From an uncultured Verrucomicrobiota bacterium (lineage in GTDB: Bacteria > Verrucomicrobiota > Kiritimatiellia > CAJWTS01), in the NCBI GenBank assembly GCA_913047795.1, contig CAJWTS010000008.1, forward strand, positions 16,634 to 80,633: a stretch of DNA of 64,000 nt, written 5' to 3'. The notes under the pieces are model-generated. The model was not told the DNA's origin. It saw only the letters and a program-made list of their open reading frames with translations, and ran no database searches. The translations under genes and the position numbers were made by a program. Below, piece by piece: positions 22,104 to 36,260 of this stretch. How positions within the stretch are numbered: the stretch's first letter is position 1; every line of letters begins with the position of its first letter.

Positions 22104-24131
22104 ATGCATGAGCTACGCTTTCGCCAGATTCATCTCGATTTCCACACATCGCCCGCGATTGCCGAAATCGGCAGCCGGTTCGATAAGAAGCAGTGGCAGA
22201 CGGCACTTCAGGACGGCCACGTCGATTCCGTCACCTGCTTCGGCGTCTGCCATCACGGCTGGAACTACAACGACACGACCGTTGGCGAACGACACCCGCA
22301 TCTCGATTTCGACCTGCTGCGTGCGCAGTACGACGCCTGCAAAGAAATCGACGTCAACGTACCGATCTACATCACCGCCGGCGTGAGCAACCGCGTTGCG
22401 GAGGCACATCCCGAATGGCGCGAGATTGCACCGAACGGAAGCTACGCGGCGTGGACTTCCAGCACGCTTGACGCGGGGTTCAAGTCCCTCTGCTTTAACA
22501 GCCCCTACACCGACTATCTCTGCGAACTGATTCACGAGATTGTCGAACAATATCCCGCATGTGACGGCATCTTCCTGGATATCATTTCGCAGGCGCAATG
22601 CTGCTGCGTATTCTGCATGCGCAGCATGGTCGACGGCGGACTGGATCCAACCGACGAGGCCGACCGAACGGAGATGTCGCGGCGATCACTGGAACGCTAC
22701 TATCGCATGGCGACGGAAGCCTGCCGCAGCACGAACCCCGACATGCCGGTGTTCCACAACAGCGGACATATCACGCGCGGAAAGCGCGACCTGCTGAAGT
22801 ACTTCAGCCATCTTGAACTGGAGTCGCTTCCCACCGGCGGCTGGGGCTACGATCACTTTCCCGTCTCGGCCAAGTATTGCCATCGCCTTGAACACGACTT
22901 CATGGGCATGACCGGCAAGTTCCATACAACCTGGGGCGAATTCGGGGGCTACAAACACCCTAATGCGCTGCGCTACGAATGCGCGGCCATGCTCGCGTTT
23001 GGATCAAAATGCAGTATCGGCGACCAACTGCATCCATGCGGCGAGATGGACATGTCCACCTACGGAATCATTGGGGCGGCCTACGCCGAGGTGGAGGCCA
23101 AGGAGCCGTTCTGTATCAACACGGACAACATCGCCGATGTTGCCCTACTCTCCGCATCAGCCGTGGATCCGACCGGTCCGCGGATGGACACCGCGGATGA
23201 CGGCGCGGCGCGCATCCTGCTCGAAGGGCACGTGCTCTTCGACGTCATCGATACGGATATGCCCTTTGATCGCTATCGCGTCTTGCTCCTGCCCGACGAC
23301 GTGCGTGTCGATGACGAACTGATCGCCAAAATCAATGCATTCCTCGCCGGCGGCGGCAAACTTTTCCTGAGCGGGAAGAGTGGCTGGACGCGCGACGACC
23401 AGCCGGCCTGCGACATCGGCGCGATGTGGGAAGGCGAAAGCCCGTATCAGCCGGACTTCATTCAACCGATACCGGAATTGGCACCCGATTTCGCGGCTGA
23501 CCCGATCGTGATGTACCTGCCCTCGCAACGGATCAGGGTCACGGATACGACCCGTGGAACATCGCTGGGCAAAATCTACGACCCGTATTTCAACCGCAGC
23601 TGGGAGCATTTCTGCAGCCATCAGCATGCGCCCCCAAAACCAAATCCATCCGGCTATGACTGTGCGGTGTTAAACGGCAATACGATGTACCTCGCCCATC
23701 CGGTGTTCACGCATTATCGCGCCACCGGCGCCGTGGCGCATCGCGACTATGCCTTGAAGGCGCTGCGCATGTTACTCGGCGATGACGAACGCTTATCGGT
23801 CAATCTGCCGTCGACCGGGCGCGTGACGCTGATGGATCAGCCCGCGGAGAATCGTTATGTCCTGCATCTGCTACACGCTAATACGATCACCCGTGGCGGA
23901 CCCATGGAGCTTTCCGGCGGTAATCTCTCGCGTGCGACCCAGTCCGTAGAAGTCATCGAAGATATCGTACCACTGCATGATACCCGCGTCGCATTGCAAC
24001 TCGACAGCCCGATCACGAAAGTGACGATCGAACCGCAGGGCACCGAAATCCCGTTCGAGATGGACGGCGATCGCATTAGGCTGACTGTTGATTCGTTTGC
24101 CTGCCACCAGATGGTGGTGCTGTGGCGGTAG
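22104..24131 (+). CDS. GH42-like putative glycoside hydrolase (TIM barrel plus beta-galactosidase-trimerisation-like domain)
   Basis: 675 aa. The N-terminal LRFRQIHLDFHTSP...VDSVTCFGVCHHGW pattern recurs in proteins usually annotated this way. The family assignment is from memory. Confidence 0.6.
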   Translation: MHELRFRQIHLDFHTSPAIAEIGSRFDKKQWQTALQDGHVDSVTCFGVCHHGWNYNDTTVGERHPHLDFDLLRAQYDACKEIDVNVPIYITAGVSNRVAEAHPEWREIAPNGSYAAWTSSTLDAGFKSLCFNSPYTDYLCELIHEIVEQYPACDGIFLDIISQAQCCCVFCMRSMVDGGLDPTDEADRTEMSRRSLERYYRMATEACRSTNPDMPVFHNSGHITRGKRDLLKYFSHLELESLPTGGWGYDHFPVSAKYCHRLEHDFMGMTGKFHTTWGEFGGYKHPNALRYECAAMLAFGSKCSIGDQLHPCGEMDMSTYGIIGAAYAEVEAKEPFCINTDNIADVALLSASAVDPTGPRMDTADDGAARILLEGHVLFDVIDTDMPFDRYRVLLLPDDVRVDDELIAKINAFLAGGGKLFLSGKSGWTRDDQPACDIGAMWEGESPYQPDFIQPIPELAPDFAADPIVMYLPSQRIRVTDTTRGTSLGKIYDPYFNRSWEHFCSHQHAPPKPNPSGYDCAVLNGNTMYLAHPVFTHYRATGAVAHRDYALKALRMLLGDDERLSVNLPSTGRVTLMDQPAENRYVLHLLHANTITRGGPMELSGGNLSRATQSVEVIEDIVPLHDTRVALQLDSPITKVTIEPQGTEIPFEMDGDRIRLTVDSFACHQMVVLWR

Positions 24132-24299: not shown

Positions 24300-24719
24300 T
24301 CAACGCAACGCATCGGGAAGCGTCACGACGAAGTCCCTGATCTCGTCCCGCACGCGACGGTAATGCGGCAAGGCATCTTCTTCGGTCGTCGCATCGGCCG
24401 CAAGCCTGGGCGGATCGTCGAAACCGCGATGGATCACAGTGGCACCCGCCGGAAAAACCGGACAGGTTTCGTGAGCATGCCCACAGACCGTTACGACGTG
24501 CGAGAGATCCACGCCATCAAGTTCATCGAGTGCCTTGCTCTGGTATCCCGAGATATCGATACCGATCTCGCCCATGACCTTGACGGCGAGCGGGTTCAGG
24601 CCATGCTTCTCGATTCCAGCCGAATAGGCCTCGATCATATCGCCCCGTAGTTCGCGGCAGAGACCCTCTGCCATCTGGCTGCGGCATGAGTTTCCCGTGC
24701 ATAGAAACAGCAATCGCAT
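24300..24719 (-). CDS. arsC: Arsenate reductase, LMW-PTP (thioredoxin-coupled) type
   Basis: MRLLFLCTGNSCRSQMAEG has the CX5R(S/T) P-loop, with downstream Cys residues (VTVCGHAHETCP). The start is ATG 24719, or 24731 as in the track. Confidence 0.85.
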   Translation of the reverse strand: MRLLFLCTGNSCRSQMAEGLCRELRGDMIEAYSAGIEKHGLNPLAVKVMGEIGIDISGYQSKALDELDGVDLSHVVTVCGHAHETCPVFPAGATVIHRGFDDPPRLAADATTEEDALPHYRRVRDEIRDFVVTLPDALR

Positions 24720-24922
24720 GTGATCACGCATGGTTGTTTTCCTGATTCTGATTGGCCGCGAACCCGGAGAATAGCACCCCTACCTGCTCCGGGCGAATAC
24801 GCATCGAAGACCCGCGTAGCTTCGCAGCCCGTCTGTGGCCCGCATAATTTTCTTTATGCCCACGACCACGAGTGTCATTATCGCCTCACACTCAAACCCT
24901 ATCCCGATCGAGGCTCACAGAT

Positions 24923-25603
24923 ATGAAACGCTCCGAAATCAACCAGGCCATTCGCGAAGCACTTGAACTTCTCGAGAATCACAACTTTGCCCTCCCGCCG
25001 TTCGCGTACTGGGAACCCGAAGACTGGCAATCGAAGGGCAAGGAGGCGGACGAGATTCGTTCGCGGGCCCTGGGTTGGGACGTGACCGACTTCGGCTCCG
25101 GCACGTTTGACGACCTCGGCCTGACCGTCGTGACCATCCGCAATGGGAAACTGGACGCGCCCGACAACGTCAAGATTTACGCAGAAAAAATGCTGATCGT
25201 TAAGGAGAACCAGGTCACCCCGTTTCATTTTCACTTCTCGAAGACCGAGGATATCATCAATCGCAGTGGCGGCGACCTCCTGGTGAAGCTGTACAATTCG
25301 GAGAAGGAAGGCGGCTTCGCGGATACAGACGTCACGGTTGGATGCGACGGCGTCGAGCGAACCGTGCCCGCCGGCGGAGAGCTCGTACTCCGCCGCGGCG
25401 AGAGCATCACGCTCATTCCCGGCGTATACCACGAGTTCCGAGGCGTTGAGGGACACGGCACCGTGCTGGTTGGCGAAGTCTCGTCCTGCAACGACGACAA
25501 CGTCGACAACCGTTTCTATACGGAACTTCCGCGCTTCCCCGAGATCGAAGAAGACGAGGCGCCGCTGCGCCTCTTATGTAACGAATACCCGGCGGCGGAG
25601 TAG
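24923..25603 (+). CDS. D-lyxose/D-mannose ketol-isomerase family cupin
   Basis: MKRSEINQAI...FALPPFAYW...GWDVTDFGSG.F...EKMLIVKENQVTPFHFH..K.EDIINRSGG. 226 aa from ATG 24923. Confidence 0.8.
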   Translation: MKRSEINQAIREALELLENHNFALPPFAYWEPEDWQSKGKEADEIRSRALGWDVTDFGSGTFDDLGLTVVTIRNGKLDAPDNVKIYAEKMLIVKENQVTPFHFHFSKTEDIINRSGGDLLVKLYNSEKEGGFADTDVTVGCDGVERTVPAGGELVLRRGESITLIPGVYHEFRGVEGHGTVLVGEVSSCNDDNVDNRFYTELPRFPEIEEDEAPLRLLCNEYPAAE

Positions 25604-25646: not shown

Positions 25647-26537
25647 ATGCCGCTGATCCCCCTACCGAGCCTTCTAGAGTCCGCGCGCGCGGGCCGCTAC
25701 GCCGTCGGCTACTTCGAAAGCTGGGATCTGGAATCGCTGCAGGCCGTGATCGATGCCGCCGAAGCCTGCGCGGCACCGGTCATCGTTGGATTCAACGGTG
25801 AGTTTCTGGCCAACCCTGAACGAGTCGCCCCGGAGCGCCTGTCGATCTTTGGCGCTGCCGGTCGGGCGGCATGCGAAGCGGCGGCCGTCCCTTGCAGCCT
25901 GATCTTCAACGAATGCCCGGCGCTCCAATCCGTCTACGAGGCGACGGAGGCAGGCTTCAATGTTGTGATGTATGTCGATCCGGATATCGAACGAGAAACA
26001 TTGATCGAGCGCGTCCGCGCACTTACGGCGCACGCCCACGCTCGCGACATCGGGGTCGAGGCGGAATTCGACGAGTTGCCCATGCACCATCCCGCGGACC
26101 AGGCCCATACCACGGATCCGGTCGAGGCGGCTCAGTTTGTCGATGCGACAGGCGTCGACGCGCTGGCCGTATCGGTCGGCAACGTTCACATCATGACCGA
26201 CGGCAACACCGCCGTGGACGCGGACGCCGTCACGCGATTGGCGGACGCGGTACCTGTCTATCTTGTCCTGCACGGCGGGACCGGCGTGGAAGCCGATTCT
26301 CTGCGCGAAGCCGTCGCGGCCGGCATCACCAAGGTCAACTACGGGACCGTGCTCAAGCAGGCCTACCTGCGTGCCACGACCCAGGCCCTCGAGGCGACGG
26401 CGGCCATCGAGAACCCCCACGACCGCTTGGGTAGCGGCCGGCCGACTGATATCCAGACAGCCGGTCGAGCAGCCGTCACAGCCGAAGTCGTCCGCCTGAT
26501 GGATGGCCTGGGCTGCTGCGGGCAAGTAGACTTGTAA
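25647..26537 (+). CDS. Class II ketose-bisphosphate aldolase family protein, atypical active site
   Basis: YAVGYFESWDLESLQAVIDAAE..APVIV, SVGNVHIM and LVLHGGTG match the family. The usual HLDH(H/G) segment reads LIFNEC. Confidence 0.7.
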   Translation: MPLIPLPSLLESARAGRYAVGYFESWDLESLQAVIDAAEACAAPVIVGFNGEFLANPERVAPERLSIFGAAGRAACEAAAVPCSLIFNECPALQSVYEATEAGFNVVMYVDPDIERETLIERVRALTAHAHARDIGVEAEFDELPMHHPADQAHTTDPVEAAQFVDATGVDALAVSVGNVHIMTDGNTAVDADAVTRLADAVPVYLVLHGGTGVEADSLREAVAAGITKVNYGTVLKQAYLRATTQALEATAAIENPHDRLGSGRPTDIQTAGRAAVTAEVVRLMDGLGCCGQVDL

Positions 26538-26616: not shown

Positions 26617-28017
26617 ATGGCCAAACTCATAAGAATGCCCGACCTGGGAACGACCGTCGACAGTCTCGTTATCAACGCATGGTTGATCGAGCCCGGTCAG
26701 TCGGTCGAACTCGGGCAGCCGCTCGCGGAGATCGAGACCGACAAGGCCGTCAACGAACTCGAAAGCGTGGCAGCGGGCACCTTGCTCAAGATCGTCGCTG
26801 AGACCGGCGCCGAGGTGCAAACGGGCGACGTCATCGCCGTGATCGGAGAACCGGGCGAAGACATCGAAGCCGCGCTGCAGGGAGAGACAACCCCCGCCGT
26901 GCCGCCGAGCGCGCCAGTCCGTCGCGAACCTGCGCAGCCCGAACCCGTCGCGAGTCCGGCGCCGAGCGGAGAGCGCGTTATCGTCCAGGGCGTCAGACCG
27001 GAAAACGACGCGCCCGCAATCTATACCTACGCGCCCGATACGCAACCTGACTGTGCCGGCTACGAGACACCGTTCCTGCTTAACCTCTACCAGGAAATGC
27101 AGCGCATTCGGCGCTTCGAAGAACGCGTACGCCTGCTCTTCCTCGAGGGCATCATGCCGGGCACGATCCATCAATGTGACGGACAGGAGGCCTGCGCGGT
27201 CGGCGTCTGCGCAACGCTTCAGGACGGCGACGTGATCACCTCAACGCATCGTCCACACGGTCACGCCGTCGCGCGCGGACTACCGATAAAGGAGTTGATG
27301 TCCGAGCTGTTCGGTCGAGACGACGGTTGCTGCCGGGGCAAGGGCGGATCGATGCATTTCGGCGATTTGGCGCGCGGCATGGTTCCTGCCATCGCCACCG
27401 TGGGCAGCAATGTTCCGATCACCGCCGGCGTCGGCCTGGCTTTCAAACTGCGTGCCGAAGAGCGCGTGGCCGTCAGTTTCTTTGGCGATGGTGCAACAAA
27501 TGAAGGCGCCTTCCACGAAGGGCTTAACCTGGCGGCGGTATGGGGACTGCCCTGTATCTTCGTCTGCGAAAACAATTACTACGGGGCCTCGACACCCGTG
27601 CATCAATCGATGGCCGCCAAGGACATTGCCGATCGCGCGGCCGCCTACGGAATCGAGGGTAAAATCGTTGATGGCAATGATGTGCTGGCCGTCTACGAAG
27701 CCGTCGGCGCAGCCGTCGCCAACGCACGCGCGGGCGGTGGTCCGGCATTCCTGGAGCTCAAGACGTATCGACTCTGCGGGCATTCGCGCCGCGACGCGCG
27801 CGACTATCAACCGGACGAAGAGAAGGAATTCTGGCAGGGACGCGAACCGATCAGTCGACTGCGCCAGAGCATGCTCAACGCCGGGCTCGCCGAACAGGAC
27901 GCCTTCGATCAAGTTGACGCACAGGTCGAGGCCGAGCTCGACGCGGCGATCGAACATGCGCAGGCCGCACCCTTTCCCGACGGCGCCGACGCCCTGGAGC
28001 ACGTCTGGGCCCCATGA
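26617..28017 (+). CDS. 2-oxoacid dehydrogenase E1 alpha subunit (TPP-dependent) with an N-terminal lipoyl domain
   Basis: aa 1-80 form a lipoyl domain with IETDKAV (Lys43, nt 26743-26745). A Pro/Ala-rich linker follows. The E1 alpha core has GKGGSMH and the TPP motif GDGATNEGAFHEGLNLAAVWGLPCIFVCENN. Confidence 0.85.
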   Translation: MAKLIRMPDLGTTVDSLVINAWLIEPGQSVELGQPLAEIETDKAVNELESVAAGTLLKIVAETGAEVQTGDVIAVIGEPGEDIEAALQGETTPAVPPSAPVRREPAQPEPVASPAPSGERVIVQGVRPENDAPAIYTYAPDTQPDCAGYETPFLLNLYQEMQRIRRFEERVRLLFLEGIMPGTIHQCDGQEACAVGVCATLQDGDVITSTHRPHGHAVARGLPIKELMSELFGRDDGCCRGKGGSMHFGDLARGMVPAIATVGSNVPITAGVGLAFKLRAEERVAVSFFGDGATNEGAFHEGLNLAAVWGLPCIFVCENNYYGASTPVHQSMAAKDIADRAAAYGIEGKIVDGNDVLAVYEAVGAAVANARAGGGPAFLELKTYRLCGHSRRDARDYQPDEEKEFWQGREPISRLRQSMLNAGLAEQDAFDQVDAQVEAELDAAIEHAQAAPFPDGADALEHVWAP

Positions 28018-29033
28018 GCCGCCACCTGTCTATCGCCGAGTCCCTGCGCGAAGCCATCATCGAAGAGATGGAACGGGACGGGTCTGTCTTCTGCATGGGT
28101 GAGGACATTGGTATTCCCGGCGGTTGGGGCGGTGCCTTCACCGTGACGCTCGGCCTCGAAGAACGCTTTCGCAATCGCGTCATCGATACACCGATTTCGG
28201 AGAACGGATTCGTGGGAGCGGGTGTTGGCGCGGCGATGATGGGCCTGCGTCCCATTGTCGATCTTCAATACGCTGATTTCATCTTCTGTGCCATGGATCA
28301 GGTTGTGGGCAACGCCGCCAAGATGCGCTACATGTCCGGCGGAAAACTCAGTGTTCCGATGGTCCTGCGCGCCCCGGTCGGCATCACCGGACGTGGGGCA
28401 CAGCACGCGGGCAACCCGGAGTCGTACTTCATGGGCACGGCGGGTCTCAAGATCGTTACCGTCTCAACGGCTTACGACGCCAAGGGACTGCTCAAGTCCG
28501 CGGTTCGCGACAACAACCCGGTCCTGTTTTTTGAACATAAATTGCTATACGGGTCCAAAGGTGCCCGTGCGGAATCCGGGGCAGTGGATGGATCCAGCGA
28601 CGTCCCGGACGGCGAATATACGATCCCGATCGGCGAAGCCGCCCTACGACGCGAAGGTGGCGACGTCACGATCATCGGCTGGCTCTTGATGGCGCATTTC
28701 GCGGCGCAGGCCGGCGACTTGCTCGCCAAAGAGGGGATTGAGGCTGAGGTTATTGATCTGCGCAGCCTCGTGCCGATGGATTTTGACGCGATTGCCGCCT
28801 CGGTTAAGAAGACCGGGCGCCTCGTCATCGCCGAAGAGGGCCCCGCACGCGGCGGCATCGCCGCCGAGATCGCTGCGCGGTGCGCCGAAGAGCTGGCTGA
28901 TTATCTCGATGCACCGATCCGGCGCGTCGCCTCGCCCAATGTTCCCCCGCCCTTCTCACCACCGATGGAGGCCTTTTATCGGCCCGATGCGGCGCGCATT
29001 GCTGACGCAGCCAGGGAGAGCGTCGCGGGTTGA
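28014..29033 (+). CDS. 2-oxoacid dehydrogenase E1 beta subunit
   Basis: REAIIEEMERDGSVFCMGEDIG...GGAF..T.GL...FG..RVIDTPISENGF. 339 aa. ATGA overlap with the alpha subunit (28014-28017). Confidence 0.9.
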   Translation: MSRHLSIAESLREAIIEEMERDGSVFCMGEDIGIPGGWGGAFTVTLGLEERFRNRVIDTPISENGFVGAGVGAAMMGLRPIVDLQYADFIFCAMDQVVGNAAKMRYMSGGKLSVPMVLRAPVGITGRGAQHAGNPESYFMGTAGLKIVTVSTAYDAKGLLKSAVRDNNPVLFFEHKLLYGSKGARAESGAVDGSSDVPDGEYTIPIGEAALRREGGDVTIIGWLLMAHFAAQAGDLLAKEGIEAEVIDLRSLVPMDFDAIAASVKKTGRLVIAEEGPARGGIAAEIAARCAEELADYLDAPIRRVASPNVPPPFSPPMEAFYRPDAARIADAARESVAG

Positions 29034-29165: not shown

Positions 29166-29510
29166 ATGCATACAGAAAACAGACTGCCACATGCTGAGCA
29201 GCGAACGCTGCAGACGCCGCATGGCGCGGTGATCGGATCGAGCTTTAGCTGGCCGGGTGGACAGTACTGCGCCATTCACACGGCGAGGGGCGTGCTCGGC
29301 TGCGGGATTTACGACATCGGGGTTGCCAACGAATTTGACATGGCTTTCGCGATCGCAAAGGGCACGCCGGAAAAACCGTTGCGTGTGCCGAAAGATCTGT
29401 ACGACGCGAACGTGGTGGCCGTCAGCGACGCCGCTGCGCGGTTGGGCATCACGCCCGGCATGACGGGCCTGCAGGCCCTGGAGCAGTTCCTGAGGGCGGA
29501 AGCCACCTGA
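29166..29510 (+). CDS. DUF1805 (YunC-like) protein
   Basis: 114 aa. WPGGQYCAIHTARGVLGCGIYDI...AKG...PL..P.DL resembles the YunC family. Assignment is from memory. Confidence 0.65.
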   Translation: MHTENRLPHAEQRTLQTPHGAVIGSSFSWPGGQYCAIHTARGVLGCGIYDIGVANEFDMAFAIAKGTPEKPLRVPKDLYDANVVAVSDAAARLGITPGMTGLQALEQFLRAEAT

Positions 29511-31596: not shown

Positions 31597-33846
31597 CTAG
31601 CCTGGAGCAACCAAGACGTCGACGTCCTTCCGGCGCGATTCAGGGGAGACCTTCAATTCGACGAGTTTTCCCGCCTTCATGCTGCCTTCGACGACCGTCT
31701 TGTAAGGCGCGTGCATTTTGAACTCCACATCCCAGTCGCTGGGCCAGGCCGGAAACAGATAAATCTTGCGCCCGTCCGTCTGCATGAGCATCGCTTGAAG
31801 TGTCTTGAGCAGGACGCCCCCGTGACATTGATCCGGGGTCCAGTCGTAGTTGGGCCCCCAGAAGGCCGGGAAGCGCGAGTCCGCATTCTTGTTCCGCGCG
31901 CGGCCCACAACACTCTCGCGAACCTGTTCGCTGAGCCCAAGATAGGCCATGAAAATATCATCCTGTCGCCACCCGTGATTGCCTCTGTCCCATCGGTGCT
32001 TTAGCCCTTCGATTCCCAATTCCAAACCGGGCTTGCCGATCGCAACCTGTCGAAAAGGAAACACAGCGTAGAGTTCGGGGTTTTCACAGTTTCGCTTGTC
32101 GGAAAACTGCTCCGCGGGGGCCAGCATGGTCGTGCCGTCAACTTCTCGCGTGGGAAGGTCGGGCACCTTCTTCTTGAGGGCCGTCCAGAATGCTATCTGC
32201 TCGGCCGAAGGGAGTTCGCTTTCCAACGACAAGAGTCGATCCGTCACCGCATGTAAGCCGGCGACTTCGGGCATGGGATTCGTGCAATCCCACCACGTCT
32301 CCAGGGCCTGGGCTGGATGCATGATGAGCTTGCCGCCCGCGTCCGTCCCGTAGTGTTGATCATAGAACGTCAGGATATCGTGGGCCACCGGCAGCAGCAT
32401 GTCGCTCAAGAATGCCTCATCGAGCGTATGCTCATAATAGTCCAGCAACATGTAAACGAACTCCAGGCCCGCCACCCATTCCCATTTATGCCAGGGGCTG
32501 GCCTGGATCTTGTCGGATCGCTCCTCAAAAGGCGTCCACCCGTAGACTTCATTGAACATGTCTCCCCAGAAAAAGATACATTCCGGCACGTATACGCCGT
32601 CGTGATCCGTATGGCGACGGGTTCGATGCCGGAACAGGGGCATCAGATCTTCGCCATACATCTTGAACAGGGGCTGCATCAACTCAAAGTCTCCGGAACT
32701 GCACATGCTGGTGTAGGGAAGGCGCGTATTCTGCCACCAGTAGCCTGGCCCCCATCGCCGGTAATCCGCGTCGCCGGGTTCACCGGCGTGCGCCACGTTA
32801 AAGATCGAGCCGTTAAATTTGATGGGGTATTGCCCGCGTCCCGCGCAAGCATTCATGAAGCGCTGGAGCGCATACATGCGCGCGACCGTGGACGCATCGT
32901 CCTGATCCGCCGTGGTGTCCGTGACATGTATCCAACTCCGGTGCCAGAAATCGCTCCACCACTGCTCATGCGCGGCGCGGCGGCGATCGACAGGAATGCG
33001 CGTGCTGGCGGCAGTCGCCGTATCCACGGCTTCCAGCCACTGTTGCGGCGTACTCGCATGCTCGGTCAGCACGCAAATGCTGAACCGATGCGTCGACGAG
33101 CTGGGAGATCGAAGGTGCCGATCATCCAGTCGTTCTGCGTGCCCGACTGATATCACGGCACCGAATGTTCTATGCAGCAAAGGATCGCCTCGTTCGAAAT
33201 CCTCGACACCCTGCGTCTTCGCATGCGCTGTGGGCCCTACCGACTTAATGTTGTGGTGGTACCAGCCGATACGCCCGTTCAGACCGGACAAGACGGTATC
33301 GGGCTCCACAAGGGTGGGCCCTGGCGGAGGAGGGTCGTCGGGCGTGAAGACACATGGATGCAAGACGTCGCTGGTCTCAAGGCTCGGAAGCACGTAGGGT
33401 TCTTTCCGCCACAATTCGATCGAAGCCGTGGCTTGAATCTCGGTCGCGCTCTCGATATCGACGTGAATTTCAGGATGATTGGCGTCGACCCAGAGACGCA
33501 GCCTGGTCTCCGTGGCACCCTCGCCAACTTGTATGTTTATCGTCCCGTCGAGGAGTGACAGGGCCTGACTGAAAGCCGTGGCCGCACCAGGCGGAACAGG
33601 GTCCATCTGGATTCGAATCTTACCCACCTTGAGCAAGCGGCCGTTGTCACCCCAGCTATCCGTCCTGGAAACGTAAAAAACAAGGTCACCACTATCTTCG
33701 ATCCATGCGTTGAGCCCAATCTCGCCATTTCCCAGCGGCATTGAACCGCTGTGATCCCTGCCCGGGCTGTCCCATACAACGCTATACGTGTCCATCGTGT
33801 TCCCCAACCTGTCGCATGCGCCCGCTTGATTCGTGATCGAAAGCAT
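31597..33846 (-). CDS. GH95-like / DUF5703-type putative glycoside hydrolase
   Basis: 749 aa. The N-terminal SMPLGNGEIGLNAW...VSRTDSWGDNGRLLKVG resembles the PLGNGxLG N-domain of GH95-like proteins. An alternative start is ATG 33795. Confidence 0.55.
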   Translation of the reverse strand: MLSITNQAGACDRLGNTMDTYSVVWDSPGRDHSGSMPLGNGEIGLNAWIEDSGDLVFYVSRTDSWGDNGRLLKVGKIRIQMDPVPPGAATAFSQALSLLDGTINIQVGEGATETRLRLWVDANHPEIHVDIESATEIQATASIELWRKEPYVLPSLETSDVLHPCVFTPDDPPPPGPTLVEPDTVLSGLNGRIGWYHHNIKSVGPTAHAKTQGVEDFERGDPLLHRTFGAVISVGHAERLDDRHLRSPSSSTHRFSICVLTEHASTPQQWLEAVDTATAASTRIPVDRRRAAHEQWWSDFWHRSWIHVTDTTADQDDASTVARMYALQRFMNACAGRGQYPIKFNGSIFNVAHAGEPGDADYRRWGPGYWWQNTRLPYTSMCSSGDFELMQPLFKMYGEDLMPLFRHRTRRHTDHDGVYVPECIFFWGDMFNEVYGWTPFEERSDKIQASPWHKWEWVAGLEFVYMLLDYYEHTLDEAFLSDMLLPVAHDILTFYDQHYGTDAGGKLIMHPAQALETWWDCTNPMPEVAGLHAVTDRLLSLESELPSAEQIAFWTALKKKVPDLPTREVDGTTMLAPAEQFSDKRNCENPELYAVFPFRQVAIGKPGLELGIEGLKHRWDRGNHGWRQDDIFMAYLGLSEQVRESVVGRARNKNADSRFPAFWGPNYDWTPDQCHGGVLLKTLQAMLMQTDGRKIYLFPAWPSDWDVEFKMHAPYKTVVEGSMKAGKLVELKVSPESRRKDVDVLVAPG

Positions 33847-33977: not shown

Positions 33978-36260
33978 ATGAGCGTCGACTATCACCTCTA
34001 TTCGATAAAGCGAAGCGACTACGCTGTCAACGAAGAGAACAGGGCCAGGGCGATTCAACGTGGCCTGGTCTCGGCACCGTGGTACACGCCCCCTGTTGAA
34101 CGGGAGGTCATGCGCGAATTGCTGATTCGCCGTGATGGTCCGGCCATCCGGGACACGCTCATCTGGTTTGGCTTGCTGATCGCATCGGGCATCTGCGGCT
34201 TTCTCCTATGGGGCACATGGTGGGCCATCATTCCATTTGCCGTTTATGGCGTCGTCTACGGCACGTCGTCGGATTCCCGCTGGCACGAATGCCTTCATGG
34301 TTCAGCCTTTAAGACGGACTGGATGAACAACGTTCTCTATGAAATCGCTTCATTCATGGTGGTGCGGGAGGCGACCCCCTGGCGCTGGAGTCATATGCGC
34401 CACCATAGCGATACGATCGTTGCCGGCAGCGATCCGGAAATCCTGCCCCGCCCGCCCGACATCAAGGGTCTTCTACAACAATTCGTCATCTGGCCCAGTG
34501 CGAAGGCGGAATTCCGGAAAATGTTCCTGCACGCGTCAGGAAGACTCACGGAAGCCGAAAAGATTTACGTGCCGAAAAACTCCTACCCGCGTGTGTTTCT
34601 AACATCGCGCATCTATCTGCTCATCTACGGAACCACGATTGCCCTCGCGCTGGCAACGCGCAGCTGGCTTCCACTCATGTACATCGGCTTGCCCAGTTTC
34701 TACGGTGCGTGGCTGATGCCGTTTTACGGATACACCCAGCATTTGGGTTTGGCGGAGAACGTCCTGGATCACCGACTCAATACCCGCTCCGTGAACATGT
34801 GCCTGGTCAATCGTTACCTCTACTGGAACATGAACTATCACCTGGAGCACCATATGTTTCCCCTGGTGCCGTACCATGCCCTGCCCAAGCTCCAGCAGCT
34901 GCTCAAGAATGACATCCCCAAACCGCATCCAAGCATCTACGCGGCCTTCAAGGATATCGTTCCCGCCATCTTGCGACAGGCGAAAGAGCCCACCTACTGC
35001 ATCACCCCGGACATCCCGAAGTCGGCGTTGGATTCCGCACAGGACGTTTCAACTGTGACACTGGTGTCGAACCAGGCGCCCGATGCCGAGGGATGGCTGG
35101 AGGTTGGTGACGCGGATCAACTGGACCGGGAAGACGTGCTTCGCTTTGACCATGATACCAGCACCTACGCCATCTACCGTACGGATGATGATGCCTACTA
35201 TGCGTCCGATGGTCTTTGCACGCATGGCCACACGCATCTGGCGACGGGCCTGGTCAGGGGGCAGCAGATCGAATGTCCCAAGCACAATGGCCGCTTTGAT
35301 GTCACAACCGGCGAACCCGCCCGCCCGCCGGTGTGCGTCGCCCTGAAGACTTACCCGGTGCGCATTGAAAACGGCACGTTATTCATGCAGGTGGGCGCCA
35401 ATGGAGATAACGATTCTACAGGCCGGATGCCCGCCCGGAATTTTCGCGTGGTCAGCAACGATAACGTGGCGACCTTCATCAAGGAACTGGTCCTTGAGCC
35501 ACTGGACACGCGTACGCCTTTTCAGTATCAGCCCGGTGAATACGTTCAACTCGACATACCGCCCTATGAAATGGCCTTTCCCGAGATCAACGTCAACGAT
35601 CCCTACAAGGCGATCTGGGATCGTAATGAACTATTTAAATGCAGGGCGTCGAATCTCGCACCCACACGTCGAAATTTCTCCATGGCGAGCAACCCGGCCA
35701 CGGAAGACCTGGTCCGTTTCAACGTTCGCATCTCCACACCCCCGCTGGGAGTCGACTGCAGTGCGGGCGTTGGGTCGTCGTATCTCTTTCGCTTGAAGGC
35801 AGGCGACGAGGTCACCGCCATCGGCCCCTTTGGCGATTTTTACCCGCAAGAGACCGAGAGAGAGATGATCTACCTGGGCGGCGGCGCGGGCATGGCACCC
35901 TTGAGATCGCATATCTCGCATTTGTTCGACACCCTGAAGACCACTCGCAAGGTGAGCTACTGGTACGGTGCCCGATCGCTACAGGAGATTTTCTATCAAG
36001 ACTATTTCGAAGCCCTGGACCAGCAACATCCACATTTTACTTTCAAAGCCGCACTCTCGGAACCTCTCGAGGAAGATCACTGGACGGGCGACGTGGGACT
36101 TATTCACGAAGTCATGCGAACCCAGTACCTTGCCCGGCATCCTGATCCGACGCAGATCGAGTACTACCTTTGCGGTCCGCCCCAGATGGTGCAAGCGGCC
36201 AGGCAATTGCTAAGTGAACTGAACGTACCGGAAGACCAGATCGCGTTTGATGAGTTTTAA
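33978..36260 (+). CDS. Tri-domain fusion: membrane fatty-acid desaturase + Rieske [2Fe-2S] + NqrF-like FAD/NAD(P)H reductase
   Basis: His boxes HECLH (aa 103-107), WRWSHMRHHSDT and HLEHHMFP. Rieske motif CTHGH-x16-CPKH (nt 35217-35285). Reductase motifs RRNFSMAS and GGGAGMAP, with a YYLCGPPQM...AFDEF C-terminus. Confidence 0.85.
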   Translation: MSVDYHLYSIKRSDYAVNEENRARAIQRGLVSAPWYTPPVEREVMRELLIRRDGPAIRDTLIWFGLLIASGICGFLLWGTWWAIIPFAVYGVVYGTSSDSRWHECLHGSAFKTDWMNNVLYEIASFMVVREATPWRWSHMRHHSDTIVAGSDPEILPRPPDIKGLLQQFVIWPSAKAEFRKMFLHASGRLTEAEKIYVPKNSYPRVFLTSRIYLLIYGTTIALALATRSWLPLMYIGLPSFYGAWLMPFYGYTQHLGLAENVLDHRLNTRSVNMCLVNRYLYWNMNYHLEHHMFPLVPYHALPKLQQLLKNDIPKPHPSIYAAFKDIVPAILRQAKEPTYCITPDIPKSALDSAQDVSTVTLVSNQAPDAEGWLEVGDADQLDREDVLRFDHDTSTYAIYRTDDDAYYASDGLCTHGHTHLATGLVRGQQIECPKHNGRFDVTTGEPARPPVCVALKTYPVRIENGTLFMQVGANGDNDSTGRMPARNFRVVSNDNVATFIKELVLEPLDTRTPFQYQPGEYVQLDIPPYEMAFPEINVNDPYKAIWDRNELFKCRASNLAPTRRNFSMASNPATEDLVRFNVRISTPPLGVDCSAGVGSSYLFRLKAGDEVTAIGPFGDFYPQETEREMIYLGGGAGMAPLRSHISHLFDTLKTTRKVSYWYGARSLQEIFYQDYFEALDQQHPHFTFKAALSEPLEEDHWTGDVGLIHEVMRTQYLARHPDPTQIEYYLCGPPQMVQAARQLLSELNVPEDQIAFDEF

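What the first reader, a model, noticed from the sequence alone, without database searches (positions are those of the whole stretch)
26617..29033. E1 alpha subunit carrying its own lipoyl domain, with no E2 or E3 anywhere nearby
The E1 alpha ORF begins with an 80-aa lipoyl domain that has the canonical lipoylation context IETDKAV (Lys43). A Pro/Ala-rich swinging-arm linker (TTPAVPPSAPVRREPAQPEPVASPAPS) follows, then a normal TPP-binding E1 alpha core. E1 beta follows with an ATGA overlap. In canonical 2-oxoacid dehydrogenase complexes the lipoyl domain belongs to E2. The exceptions I recall are a lipoyl domain on E1 beta in Zymomonas PDH and on E3 in some bacteria. This window has no E2 catalytic (acyltransferase) domain and no E3. 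The flanking genes are a D-lyxose isomerase, an atypical class II aldolase-family gene and a DUF1805 gene, all on the same strand. This could be an acetoin/ketose-cleaving type E1 that uses an in-cis lipoyl acceptor and borrows E2 and E3 from elsewhere, or a different chemistry.
Basis: partly seen in the sequence, partly recalled or inferred. Interest (0 to 1): 0.6.

Follow-up and report, generated by a model that had tools for sequence, protein, structure and literature searches.

The report
Lipoyl arm fused to E1 alpha
A thiamine-dependent E1 enzyme in a sugar operon carries its own lipoic-acid swinging arm, left over from a neighbouring E2 gene whose catalytic core was deleted; this loss has happened many times in bacteria, and the pathway it serves has not been described.

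Summary
Window 26617-28017 encodes one 466-aa protein: a lipoyl domain (Lys43 in ETDKAV), a 44-77 residue disordered Pro/Ala linker, and a TPP-binding E1 alpha core. E1 beta follows with an ATGA overlap. There is no E2 core or E3 on this contig.

The fusion is not rare. At least 113 database clusters share it, all with the lipoyl lysine intact.

The E1 belongs to a widespread, uncharacterised sugar cassette: a class II aldolase-like protein with Asn-Glu in place of the catalytic Asp-His, E1 alpha/beta, a lipoyl carrier and a LyxI cupin. A PfkB kinase or a RuBisCO-like protein is often present too. This scan has already reported the cassette on other DNA.

Across the E1 clade the carrier is very labile. 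I found a graded series: full E2, E2 with a truncated core fused to E1 alpha, lipoyl+PSBD, an 80-aa free lipoyl protein, and lipoyl-E1 alpha. A single origin of the fusion is rejected (AU p = 5e-5).

The genome has only two E2 cores (PDH, and an E1ab-E2-E3 set), both with their own lipoyl domains. It also has LipA, a LipB/LplA-type enzyme and E3. The most likely mechanism is an in-cis acyl acceptor that is off-loaded and re-oxidised by housekeeping E2/E3. CoA-independent release is not excluded, and the substrate is unknown.

The parts
26617..28017 (+). Lipoyl-E1 alpha fusion gene (466 aa, P0001)
   Evidence: ORF, translation. Pfam Biotin_lipoyl 5-76 and E1_dh 160-454. AF2 model has mean pLDDT 83.9.
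26629..26847 (+). Lipoyl domain (residues 5-77). The lipoyl-lysine codon for Lys43 is at 26743-26745.
   Evidence: Pfam 8e-20. T41-D42-K43 are invariant in the 47-sequence alignment, and the lysine is present in 113 of 113 fused homologues. The module is 47% identical over 121 aa to the N-terminus of the upstream-type E2 of L027.
26887..27018 (+). Disordered Pro/Ala-rich linker (residues 91-134, within a 77-residue inter-domain stretch). It contains no E3-binding (PSBD) domain.
   Evidence: pLDDT below 50 for residues 91-134. No PF02817 hit. In fused homologues the linker has a median of 72 aa (range 19-157) and is Ala/Pro rich.
27094..27978 (+). TPP-binding E1 alpha core (E1_dh, residues 160-454), with a GDG...ENN thiamine-diphosphate motif
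   Evidence: Pfam 3.3e-86. The best solved relatives are human PDH E1 alpha (7.9e-69) and Thermus 2-oxoacid DH alpha. It scores below the curated PDH E1 alpha equivalog cut-offs.
28014..29033 (+). E1 beta (339 aa, P0002), translationally coupled by an ATGA overlap
   Evidence: Transket_pyr 5-180 and Transketolase_C 207-329. The overlap is read directly.
25647..26537 (+). Class II FBP-aldolase-fold protein (P0004) with Asn-Glu in place of the catalytic Asp and the Zn-ligand His. It is a conserved partner in the cassette.
   Evidence: Pfam F_bP_aldolase 2e-50. It scores below every NCBIfam cut-off. LIFNEC aligns to IHLDHG of 3Q94 and to WDH of YdjI. The 'NE' pair is present in all 39 cassette homologues aligned. 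The gene lies next to E1 alpha in most related loci.
24872..25603 (+). D-lyxose/D-mannose-isomerase-family cupin (P0003). It is a conserved partner in the cassette.
   Evidence: Pfam Lyx_isomer 1.3e-96. NCBIfam LyManIsomGneg scores 267 bits, below the 350-bit cut-off. Homologues at 51-58% identity end the cassette in L054, L060, L061, L069, L079, L089, L102, L143, L157, L163, L171, L175, L179 and L187.
29166..29510 (+). DUF1805 protein (P0005). It is a same-strand neighbour and probably not part of the module.
   Evidence: Pfam DUF1805 2.7e-10. No homologue in any of 160 related loci. No solved relative and no informative literature.
22104..24131 (+). GHL6-family putative glycoside hydrolase (P0008), giving upstream sugar context
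   Evidence: Pfam GHL6 3e-27 and Glyco_hydro_42M. It is separated from the cassette by a minus-strand LMW phosphatase gene.

Best explanation
The gene is a derived, E2-core-less form of a widespread but uncharacterised sugar-catabolic E1/E2 module. In the ancestral arrangement a small E2 (lipoyl domain, E3-binding domain, acyltransferase core) lay directly upstream of E1 alpha. Deletion of the E3-binding domain and the core left the lipoyl domain and its flexible linker joined in frame to E1 alpha. This origin is well supported.

The working mechanism is inferred. LyxI and the aldolase-like protein prepare a keto-sugar or keto-sugar phosphate. The E1 alpha2beta2 enzyme attacks its carbonyl with thiamine diphosphate and cleaves the adjacent C-C bond, as acetoin dehydrogenase E1 does. 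The resulting acyl group, probably acetyl or another short acyl, is passed reductively onto the lipoyl-lysine 43 of the enzyme's own N-terminal arm. Covalent tethering replaces the E2 scaffold. The acyl-dihydrolipoyl arm is then unloaded to CoA by the catalytic core of a housekeeping E2 acting in trans: the PDH E2 on contig C11, or the E2 on C16. The reduced arm is re-oxidised by the housekeeping dihydrolipoyl dehydrogenase, much as the free H protein of the glycine cleavage system is served by E3 without a stable complex.
For: Architecture.

Graded series of carrier forms among relatives:
- lipoyl-PSBD-core, then E1 alpha as the next gene (L027, L036, L039)
- a single ORF with lipoyl, PSBD, a core truncated at model position 164 of 232 (no DHR motif), and E1 alpha (L034)
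- lipoyl-PSBD-E1 alpha (P0021 and nine others)
- lipoyl+PSBD as a separate 151-aa gene (L032)
- an 80-aa lipoyl gene, separated from E1 alpha by one in-frame stop codon in L033
- lipoyl-E1 alpha (window, L122, L123)

The window's N-terminal module aligns to the upstream-type E2 over 121 aa at 47% identity, running past the lipoyl domain into the linker.

On trees built from the E1 core only, every fused form falls in the clade whose carrier lies upstream of E1 alpha. Fused and full-E2 rows interleave: 12-15 changes on 282 rows, and at least 10 forced by well-supported branches on 74 rows. A single origin is rejected (delta lnL 767, p-AU 5e-5).

The arm is under selection. The lipoyl lysine is kept in 113 of 113 fused proteins, and median lipoyl-domain identity is 49% against 58% for the core.

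Where the cassette still has an E2, the DHRxx(D/N)G motif is intact in 68 of 76 cases, so acyl-CoA is the usual output.

The genome has PDH aceE-aceF-lpd, a second E1ab-E2-E3 set, LipA, a LipB/LplA-type enzyme and GcvH. All 17 genomes with E2-less cassettes that I tested hold at least one E2 core elsewhere.
Against: No experiment or expression data bear on the mechanism. Most aerobic bacteria have an E2 elsewhere, so one search does not discriminate between models. The window protein has no E3-binding domain, so any use of E3 or of a foreign E2 core must rely on free diffusion. Repeated, independent loss of the core (at least 34 carrier-state changes) could equally mean the core is simply unnecessary for this chemistry. 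The substrate is unknown. This genome also lacks the PfkB kinase, RuBisCO-like protein and TIM-barrel partners found in most related cassettes. The direction of change (loss rather than gain of the core) rests on outgroup rooting and on the L034 intermediate, not on a rooted test.
Confidence: 0.6

Rival explanations
1. E2-independent chemistry. E1 alpha/beta, the tethered lipoyl arm and E3 form a complete oxidative C-C-cleaving enzyme. The acyl-dihydrolipoyl thioester is resolved without CoA, by hydrolysis, by phosphorolysis, or by attack from a hydroxyl of the sugar-derived acyl group. The lipoyl arm then serves mainly as the oxidant.
For: The E2 core has been lost many times independently in both halves of the E1 clade: 22 lipoyl-only, 12 lipoyl+PSBD and 115 fused rows, with at least 34 state changes. 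Some of these losses are in small genomes of about 0.9-1.3 Mb (G309, G310). The window protein has no PSBD to dock on another complex. The same genome holds two other E2-less lipoyl systems in which the arm evidently hands acyl groups to non-E2 partners: an E1a-E1b-lipoyl-KASIII fusion on C22, and a lipoyl-PSBD protein with ketosynthases on C19.
Against: Where an E2 is present in the cassette, its catalytic motif is conserved (68 of 76). This argues that acyl-CoA is the normal product. No conserved thioesterase or alternative acyltransferase accompanies the E2-less forms: DUF1805 and the LpxL-like gene are not conserved. Discarding a thioester wastes energy.
Confidence: 0.25
2. An ordinary complex with a relocated domain. 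A lipoyl-less E2 catalytic core dedicated to this E1 is encoded elsewhere in the genome.
For: One relative shows that this can happen. The genome of L030 (stand-alone 85-aa lipoyl gene upstream of E1 alpha) has an isolated 222-aa E2 core with no lipoyl domain on another contig. The window's genome is only 93.5% complete.
Against: The Pfam PF00198 search, and tblastn with four divergent E2 queries including that lipoyl-less core, find only the C11 and C16 E2 genes. Both are full length with their own lipoyl domains, and both sit in complete E1-E2-E3 operons.
Confidence: 0.05
3. The lipoyl domain is a non-functional or purely regulatory remnant, and the E1 works non-oxidatively as a lyase or carboligase. 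E1 alpha/beta pairs in deoxysugar biosynthesis clusters work this way.
For: This genome has E1 alpha/beta pairs with no lipoyl partner at all: C6 next to a Zn-ADH, and C9 inside a sugar-nucleotide modification cluster. So E1 alpha/beta does occur without a lipoyl acceptor.
Against: The lipoyl lysine and the TDK motif are invariant in 113 of 113 fused proteins down to about 45% identity. The domain folds with high confidence. A remnant would decay.
Confidence: 0.05
4. An assembly or gene-calling artefact has joined a small lipoyl gene to E1 alpha.
For: Close relatives exist in which the two are separate genes, sometimes split by a single stop codon (L033, L143, L192).
Against: The open frame is continuous through a 77-residue linker. 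The database lists the identical protein as 5 member sequences on 4 contigs. Independent fused relatives exist.
Confidence: 0.02

Closest known systems
Acetoin dehydrogenase enzyme system AcoA/AcoB/AcoC/AcoL (my own knowledge of Bacillus subtilis, Cupriavidus necator and Pelobacter carbinolicus; many fused homologues are auto-named 'acetoin:DCPIP oxidoreductase subunit alpha' by JGI)
   Same: It uses a heterotetramer-type TPP E1 alpha/beta that cleaves next to a carbonyl and reductively acylates a lipoyl-lysine. The operon is dedicated to a catabolic substrate and not to central metabolism.
   Different: The window has no AcoC acyltransferase core and no AcoL in the operon. The lipoyl domain sits on E1 alpha. 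The partners are sugar enzymes (LyxI cupin, a class II aldolase-fold protein lacking the Asp-His pair) and not butanediol or acetoin genes. Activity on acetoin is untested.
PDH E1 beta with an N-terminal lipoyl domain (Zymomonas mobilis / alphaproteobacterial PdhB; NCBIfam NF008854, PRK11892)
   Same: A lipoyl domain and linker are fused to an E1 subunit of an alpha/beta-type E1. The window's residues 1-113 match the N-terminal part of this model (1.7e-15).
   Different: There the domain is on beta and is an extra lipoyl domain in a complex that keeps a full E2 and E3. Here it is on alpha and is the only lipoyl domain of the module, with no E2 core. The window's E1 beta matches only model positions 142-460 and scores below the cut-off.
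Pyruvate dehydrogenase E1 alpha (human PDHA1, PDB 1NI4; TIGR03182)
   Same: It is the best solved-structure and best NCBIfam match to the core (7.9e-69; 336.5 bits). It has the same fold and the same TPP motif.
   Different: The score is below the equivalog cut-off (393.85). The gene context is different. The N-terminal lipoyl arm is absent from PDH E1 alpha.
Glycine cleavage system H protein
   Same: It is a lipoyl carrier that is loaded by one enzyme and re-oxidised by dihydrolipoyl dehydrogenase without a stable E2 scaffold. This is a functional analogy for how an arm lacking a PSBD could be serviced.
   Different: The fold family is different (GCV_H, not the E2-type lipoyl domain). The H protein is free-standing. 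It carries an aminomethyl group, not an acyl group.

Membership tests
Alpha/beta-type TPP-dependent E1 of 2-oxoacid/acetoin dehydrogenase systems | E1_dh domain above Pfam's gathering score | tested here: met
   289.4 bits against a cut-off of 22.
Alpha/beta-type TPP-dependent E1 of 2-oxoacid/acetoin dehydrogenase systems | Thiamine-diphosphate motif GDG(X)~26NN | tested here: met
   The sequence reads FFGDGATNEGAFHEGLNLAAVWGLPCIFVCENNYYG. G290, G292, E318 and N319 are invariant in 47 homologues.
Alpha/beta-type TPP-dependent E1 of 2-oxoacid/acetoin dehydrogenase systems | Adjacent E1 beta with Transket_pyr and Transketolase_C | tested here: met
   The ATGA coupling is read.
Pyruvate dehydrogenase E1 alpha equivalogs (TIGR03182, TIGR03181) | Score over NCBI's curated cut-off | tested here: not met
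   336.5 against 393.85, and 271.6 against 411.35.
Complete 2-oxoacid/acetoin dehydrogenase complex (E1+E2+E3 operon) | E2 with an acyltransferase catalytic domain (PF00198) encoded with the E1 | tested here: not met
   There is no PF00198 on contig C8. The only cores in the genome are on C11 and C16.
Complete 2-oxoacid/acetoin dehydrogenase complex (E1+E2+E3 operon) | Dihydrolipoyl dehydrogenase (E3) encoded with the E1 | tested here: not met
   TIGR01350 scores over its cut-off only on C11 and C16.
Acetoin dehydrogenase enzyme system (AcoABCL) | E1 cleaves acetoin or methylacetoin | not testable with these tools
   Only automated JGI names point this way. No curated AcoA model appeared among the hits.
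E2-type lipoyl domain | Biotin_lipoyl fold with the modifiable Lys in a DKA hairpin | tested here: met
   Pfam 70.9 bits. K43 lies in ETDKAV, and the lysine is kept in 113 of 113 homologues. The beta-barrel is modelled at pLDDT 81-98.
E2-type lipoyl domain | The lysine is actually lipoylated | not testable with these tools
   The machinery is present: LipA on C14, a LipB/LplA-type enzyme on C18, and GcvH on C61.
Lipoyl-E1 beta fusion PdhB (NF008854) | Lipoyl domain on the N-terminus of E1 beta, and a score over the cut-off | tested here: not met
   The window's E1 beta matches model positions 142-460 only, at 331 bits against a cut-off of 454. The lipoyl domain is on alpha.
Class II fructose/tagatose-bisphosphate aldolase (for neighbour P0004) | Catalytic Asp and first Zn-ligand His (the H-L-D-H block) | tested here: not met
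   LIFNEC aligns to IHLDHG. Asn-Glu is conserved in all 39 cassette homologues. The protein scores below every NCBIfam cut-off.

The most novel reading that the evidence does not exclude
E1 alpha/beta with a tethered or free lipoyl domain, plus E3, is a self-sufficient, E2-independent lipoate enzyme. It would oxidatively cleave a keto-sugar (phosphate) and release the acyl group without CoA. That would be a new class of lipoate-dependent enzyme, and it would explain why the acyltransferase core has been discarded so many times in this clade.
Probability: 0.25. Interest if true: 0.8.

Novelty: new variant of a known kind. Interest (0 to 1): 0.55.

Why it matters
Textbook lipoate enzymology ties the lipoyl arm to E2. 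Here a whole clade of sugar-linked E1 enzymes, spread over many phyla (Planctomycetota, Chloroflexota, Actinomycetota, Armatimonadota, Latescibacterota, Dormibacterota and others), keeps the arm but repeatedly discards the E2 core. It ends up with the arm either free or welded to E1 alpha.

Either housekeeping E2/E3 can service foreign lipoyl domains in vivo, which would mean cross-talk between complexes. Or the acyl-lipoyl intermediate is resolved without CoA, which would be new chemistry.

The fused form is a convenient one-polypeptide-pair reagent for finding the unknown substrate of the cassette: watch the mass of the arm change. These proteins are currently auto-annotated as pyruvate or acetoin dehydrogenase alpha subunits, which is probably misleading for metabolic reconstructions of uncultured bacteria.

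Tried and rejected
I could not read the neighbourhoods of most fused database proteins. Only L122, L123 and the window give context for true fusions.
- Six literature searches found no description of a lipoyl-E1 alpha fusion, of E2-less lipoyl carriers with E1 alpha/beta, or of the LyxI/aldolase/E1 cassette (DUF1805). One further query failed on a term that was too short. The Pelobacter 'lipoyl carrier' hit concerns an unrelated GcvH-like protein.
- DUF1805 as a functional partner is rejected. It has no homologue in 160 related loci and no solved relative.
- The downstream LpxL-like acyltransferase and SDR as acyl acceptors are rejected. They are not conserved near any relative.
- I looked for a cassette kinase, RuBisCO-like protein or TIM-barrel partner elsewhere in the genome and found none.
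- Naming the organism failed. Cluster look-ups gave sources (NCBI, JGI, ENA, Tara, Logan) but no taxon. Earlier notes on this genome point to the PVC group.
- The promoter/terminator scan was no better than shuffles.
- The first FastTree included lipoyl-domain columns, so I replaced it with core-only trees.
Full report
**Observation.** The window holds ORFs at 26617-28017(+) and 28014-29033(+), overlapping as ATGA. The first encodes 466 aa. Pfam finds Biotin_lipoyl at residues 5-76 (8e-20) and E1_dh at 160-454 (3.3e-86). The second ORF is a normal E1 beta with Transket_pyr and Transketolase_C. Lys43 lies in IETDKAV, and the quoted Pro/Ala linker is present. An AlphaFold2 model built on 47 fused homologues (alignment) gives a confident lipoyl beta-barrel for residues 1-90. 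It gives pLDDT below 50 for residues 91-134, and a confident E1 core from about residue 140. The 'swinging arm' description therefore holds. Upstream on the same strand lie a Lyx_isomer cupin and an F_bP_aldolase-family protein. Downstream lies DUF1805.

**Rest of the genome.** The window is G000:C8. The assembly is 3.5 Mb and 93.5% complete.
- E2 catalytic domains (PF00198) occur only twice, on C11 and C16. Both genes carry their own lipoyl domain.
- C11 is a canonical aceE (886 aa, PDH_E1_M)-aceF-lpd operon. C16 is a fused E1 alpha-beta (775 aa), E2 and E3 set next to aconitase.
- tblastn with four divergent E2 queries, including a lipoyl-less core from a relative, finds nothing further.
- LipA (C14), a LipB/LplA-type catalytic domain (C18) and GcvH (C61) are present.

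So the 'E2 lacking its own lipoyl domain elsewhere' scenario is not met in what is assembled. E2, E3 and the lipoylation machinery that could serve the fused arm do exist.

**How common the fusion is.** A search of 5.8 billion proteins returned the lipoyl+E1_dh architecture in nearly all of the best 120 clusters (45-64% identity). Ten of them also carry an E3-binding domain between the two parts, and one is fused on to E1 beta as well. That search was length-limited and used a fused query, so fused forms are over-sampled. In 113 of 113 fused proteins the lipoyl lysine sits in a TDK motif. Median identity to the window is 49% for the lipoyl domain and 58% for the core. Linkers have a median of 72 aa (range 19-157) and are Ala/Pro rich. 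The arm is clearly under purifying selection.

**The cassette.** I mapped the window's proteins onto 80 species-representative genome loci and 80 metagenome loci that encode relatives of the E1 alpha. I then clustered their neighbours and ran Pfam on representatives. Two recurring layouts emerged.
- Type A: PfkB kinase, class II aldolase-like, E1 alpha, E1 beta, lipoyl carrier, LyxI (full length, or a 181-aa cupin). It is found in Chloroflexota, Actinomycetota, Dormibacterota, Latescibacterota and Armatimonadota. It often comes with a SorC-type regulator, an Aldolase_II+SDR fusion, an aldo-keto reductase, or a GH38 alpha-mannosidase.
- Type B: RuBisCO-like protein, carrier, E1 alpha, E1 beta, and a xylose-isomerase-like TIM barrel. 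It occurs mainly in Planctomycetota and allies.

The window has LyxI, aldolase-like, lipoyl-E1 alpha and E1 beta. Its closest metagenome relatives share this: L122 has the aldolase-like gene directly before a fused lipoyl-E1 alpha, and L143 has LyxI upstream. The aldolase-like protein has Asn-Glu where class II aldolases have the catalytic Asp and first zinc-ligand His (LIFNEC against IHLDHG of 3Q94). All 39 cassette homologues that I aligned share 'NE'. It is therefore a distinct subfamily and probably not a retro-aldolase.

This genome has no PfkB, RuBisCO-like or TIM-barrel partner anywhere. DUF1805 and the downstream LpxL-like and SDR genes are found in none of the related loci. Earlier reports of this scan describe the same cassette on other DNA, including E2-less versions next to alpha-mannosidases. 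I treated those reports as leads and re-derived the points I use here.

**Origin of the fusion.** I classified the carrier at each locus and checked examples with Pfam. This gives a graded series:
1. Full E2 (lipoyl, PSBD, core) directly upstream of E1 alpha: L027, L036, L039.
2. One ORF with lipoyl, PSBD, a core truncated at model position 164 of 232 with no DHR motif, and E1 alpha: L034.
3. Lipoyl-PSBD-E1 alpha (P0021), or lipoyl-PSBD as a separate 151-aa gene (L032).
4. A free lipoyl protein of about 80 aa upstream of E1 alpha: L030, L033, L038, L127, L143, L150, L192. In L033 it is in the same frame as E1 alpha, separated by one stop codon.
5. Lipoyl-E1 alpha: the window, L122, L123.

The same loss of the core occurs where the carrier lies downstream of E1 beta: 83-aa lipoyl genes in Nanopelagicales-like contigs, and 170-aa lipoyl+PSBD genes in Dormibacterota. 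The window's N-terminal module aligns to the upstream-type E2 of L027 over 121 aa at 47% identity, running past the lipoyl domain into the linker.

On a tree of 282 E1 cores with the lipoyl columns removed, the carrier state changes at least 34 times. All fused forms fall inside the 'carrier upstream' clade (175 rows, support 97). The window sits in a well-supported group of 11 rows (support 99): four fused proteins, and seven 335-aa unfused ones whose carrier I could not read. An IQ-TREE analysis of 74 rows shows fused and full-E2 rows interleaved, with at least 10 changes forced by well-supported branches. An AU test rejects a single clade of fused forms (delta lnL 767, p = 5e-5). I named that group after seeing the tree, but the margin is large.

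With the downstream-E2 clades as outgroup, and with L034 as an intermediate, repeated loss of the core from an upstream E2 is the simplest reading. The root itself is not tested.

**Distribution.** The only other genome of the window's order that is held lacks the gene. Of 300 sampled genomes of its phylum, two have a close E1 alpha and neither is fused. GC content is slightly raised over the gene. The cassette is therefore patchy, and was probably acquired horizontally.

**Mechanism.** Shown: the architecture, the conservation of the arm, the absence of a dedicated E2 or E3, and the presence of housekeeping E2, E3 and lipoylation genes. Inferred from established E1 chemistry: the alpha2beta2 E1 cleaves next to a carbonyl of a sugar-derived ketone and reductively acylates its own Lys43 arm. 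The tether replaces the PSBD/E2 scaffold.

What happens next is open. E2 genes that survive in the cassette keep the DHRxx(D/N)G motif in 68 of 76 cases, so acyl-CoA appears to be the normal product. I therefore favour off-loading by a housekeeping E2 core and re-oxidation by Lpd. All 17 E2-less genomes that I tested do have an E2 core elsewhere, but that is weak evidence. One of them has an isolated lipoyl-less core.

The rival is that the core is dispensable because the thioester is resolved without CoA. The sheer number of independent losses supports this. So do two other E2-less lipoyl systems in this same genome: an E1a-E1b-lipoyl-KASIII fusion on C22, and a lipoyl-PSBD protein with ketosynthases and E1ab on C19. 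The substrate cannot be named from sequence. Sugar context in the window includes GHL6, a GFO/IDH/MocA oxidoreductase and a DUF5703/GH95-like protein.

**Comparison with known systems.** The core is closest to PDH E1 alpha structures but scores below NCBI's equivalog cut-offs. The system works most like acetoin dehydrogenase E1, but it lacks AcoC and AcoL and sits among sugar genes. The curated lipoyl-E1 beta family (NF008854) is the nearest known E1-lipoyl fusion. There the domain is on the other subunit, in a complex that keeps its E2 (and my own knowledge of Zymomonas PdhB). I found no paper describing a lipoyl-E1 alpha fusion or this cassette.

**Verdict.** This is a real feature and a common one in metagenomes, and I found no description of it in the papers searched. 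It is best seen as one recurrent end-state of E2-core loss in an uncharacterised sugar-linked E1 module. I class it as a new variant of a known kind. Interest is moderate, and would be higher if the E2-independent reading proves true.

Noticed in passing
G000:C22:5492-8962 (+), outside the window (L111 5492-8962): A single 1156-aa ORF joins E1_dh, Transket_pyr, Transketolase_C, a lipoyl domain and a KASIII/FabH-like ketosynthase (ACP_syn_III and ACP_syn_III_C). This suggests direct hand-off of an acyl group from a lipoyl arm to a ketosynthase, with no E2 or CoA. Glutamate synthase follows it.
   Followed up: partly
G000:C19:16259-21925 (+), outside the window (L108 6260-11926): A stand-alone 167-aa lipoyl + E3-binding protein is followed by a FabG-like SDR, two ketoacyl-synthase genes, E1 alpha, E1 beta and a GT2. 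It is another E2-core-less lipoyl system, this one in a lipid or polyketide-like cluster.
   Followed up: partly
window 25647-26537 (+): The class II aldolase-fold protein has Asn-Glu in place of the catalytic Asp and Zn-ligand His. The substitution is conserved in all 39 cassette homologues aligned, so this is a distinct subfamily and probably not an aldolase.
   Followed up: partly
L034 6771-8960 (Rhodospirillales MAG, PLTC01000121.1): One ORF carries lipoyl, E3-binding, a truncated E2 core (model positions 10-164 of 232, no DHR motif) and E1 alpha. It looks like a frozen intermediate of core loss. L106 (Spirochaetes) also reads as an E2-E1 alpha single frame.
   Followed up: partly
L205 7532-8200 (-) = G301:C19, the genome of L030: An isolated 222-aa E2 catalytic core has no lipoyl domain and no E1, E3 or lipoyl gene nearby. 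Elsewhere in the same genome the cassette has a stand-alone 85-aa lipoyl gene.
   Followed up: partly
G000:C6:65131-67086 (-) and G000:C9:66364-68591 (-): Two further E1 alpha/beta pairs have no lipoyl carrier. One lies next to a Zn-dependent alcohol dehydrogenase and an MFS transporter. The other lies inside a sugar-nucleotide modification cluster (C-methyltransferase, epimerase/dehydratase, acetaldehyde dehydrogenase).
   Followed up: partly
L033 6583-7929 and many loci (L123, L125, L126, L130, L135, L140, L145, L150, L158, L186): A RuBisCO-like protein (form IV-type hit to RuBisCO_large) lies immediately upstream of the lipoyl carrier and E1 alpha in the Planctomycetota-type cassettes, with a xylose-isomerase-like TIM barrel nearby. 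It seems to take the place that the kinase and aldolase-like pair hold in the other layout.
   Followed up: no
window 24300-24731 (-): A low-molecular-weight phosphotyrosine-phosphatase-family gene sits on the opposite strand, between the GHL6 gene and the LyxI-aldolase-E1 block.
   Followed up: no
window 31597-33846 (-) and 33978-36260 (+): A DUF5703 / GH95-like protein and a fused FA_desaturase-Rieske-NAD_binding oxygenase lie just downstream. Together they give the neighbourhood an unusual-sugar flavour.
   Followed up: no
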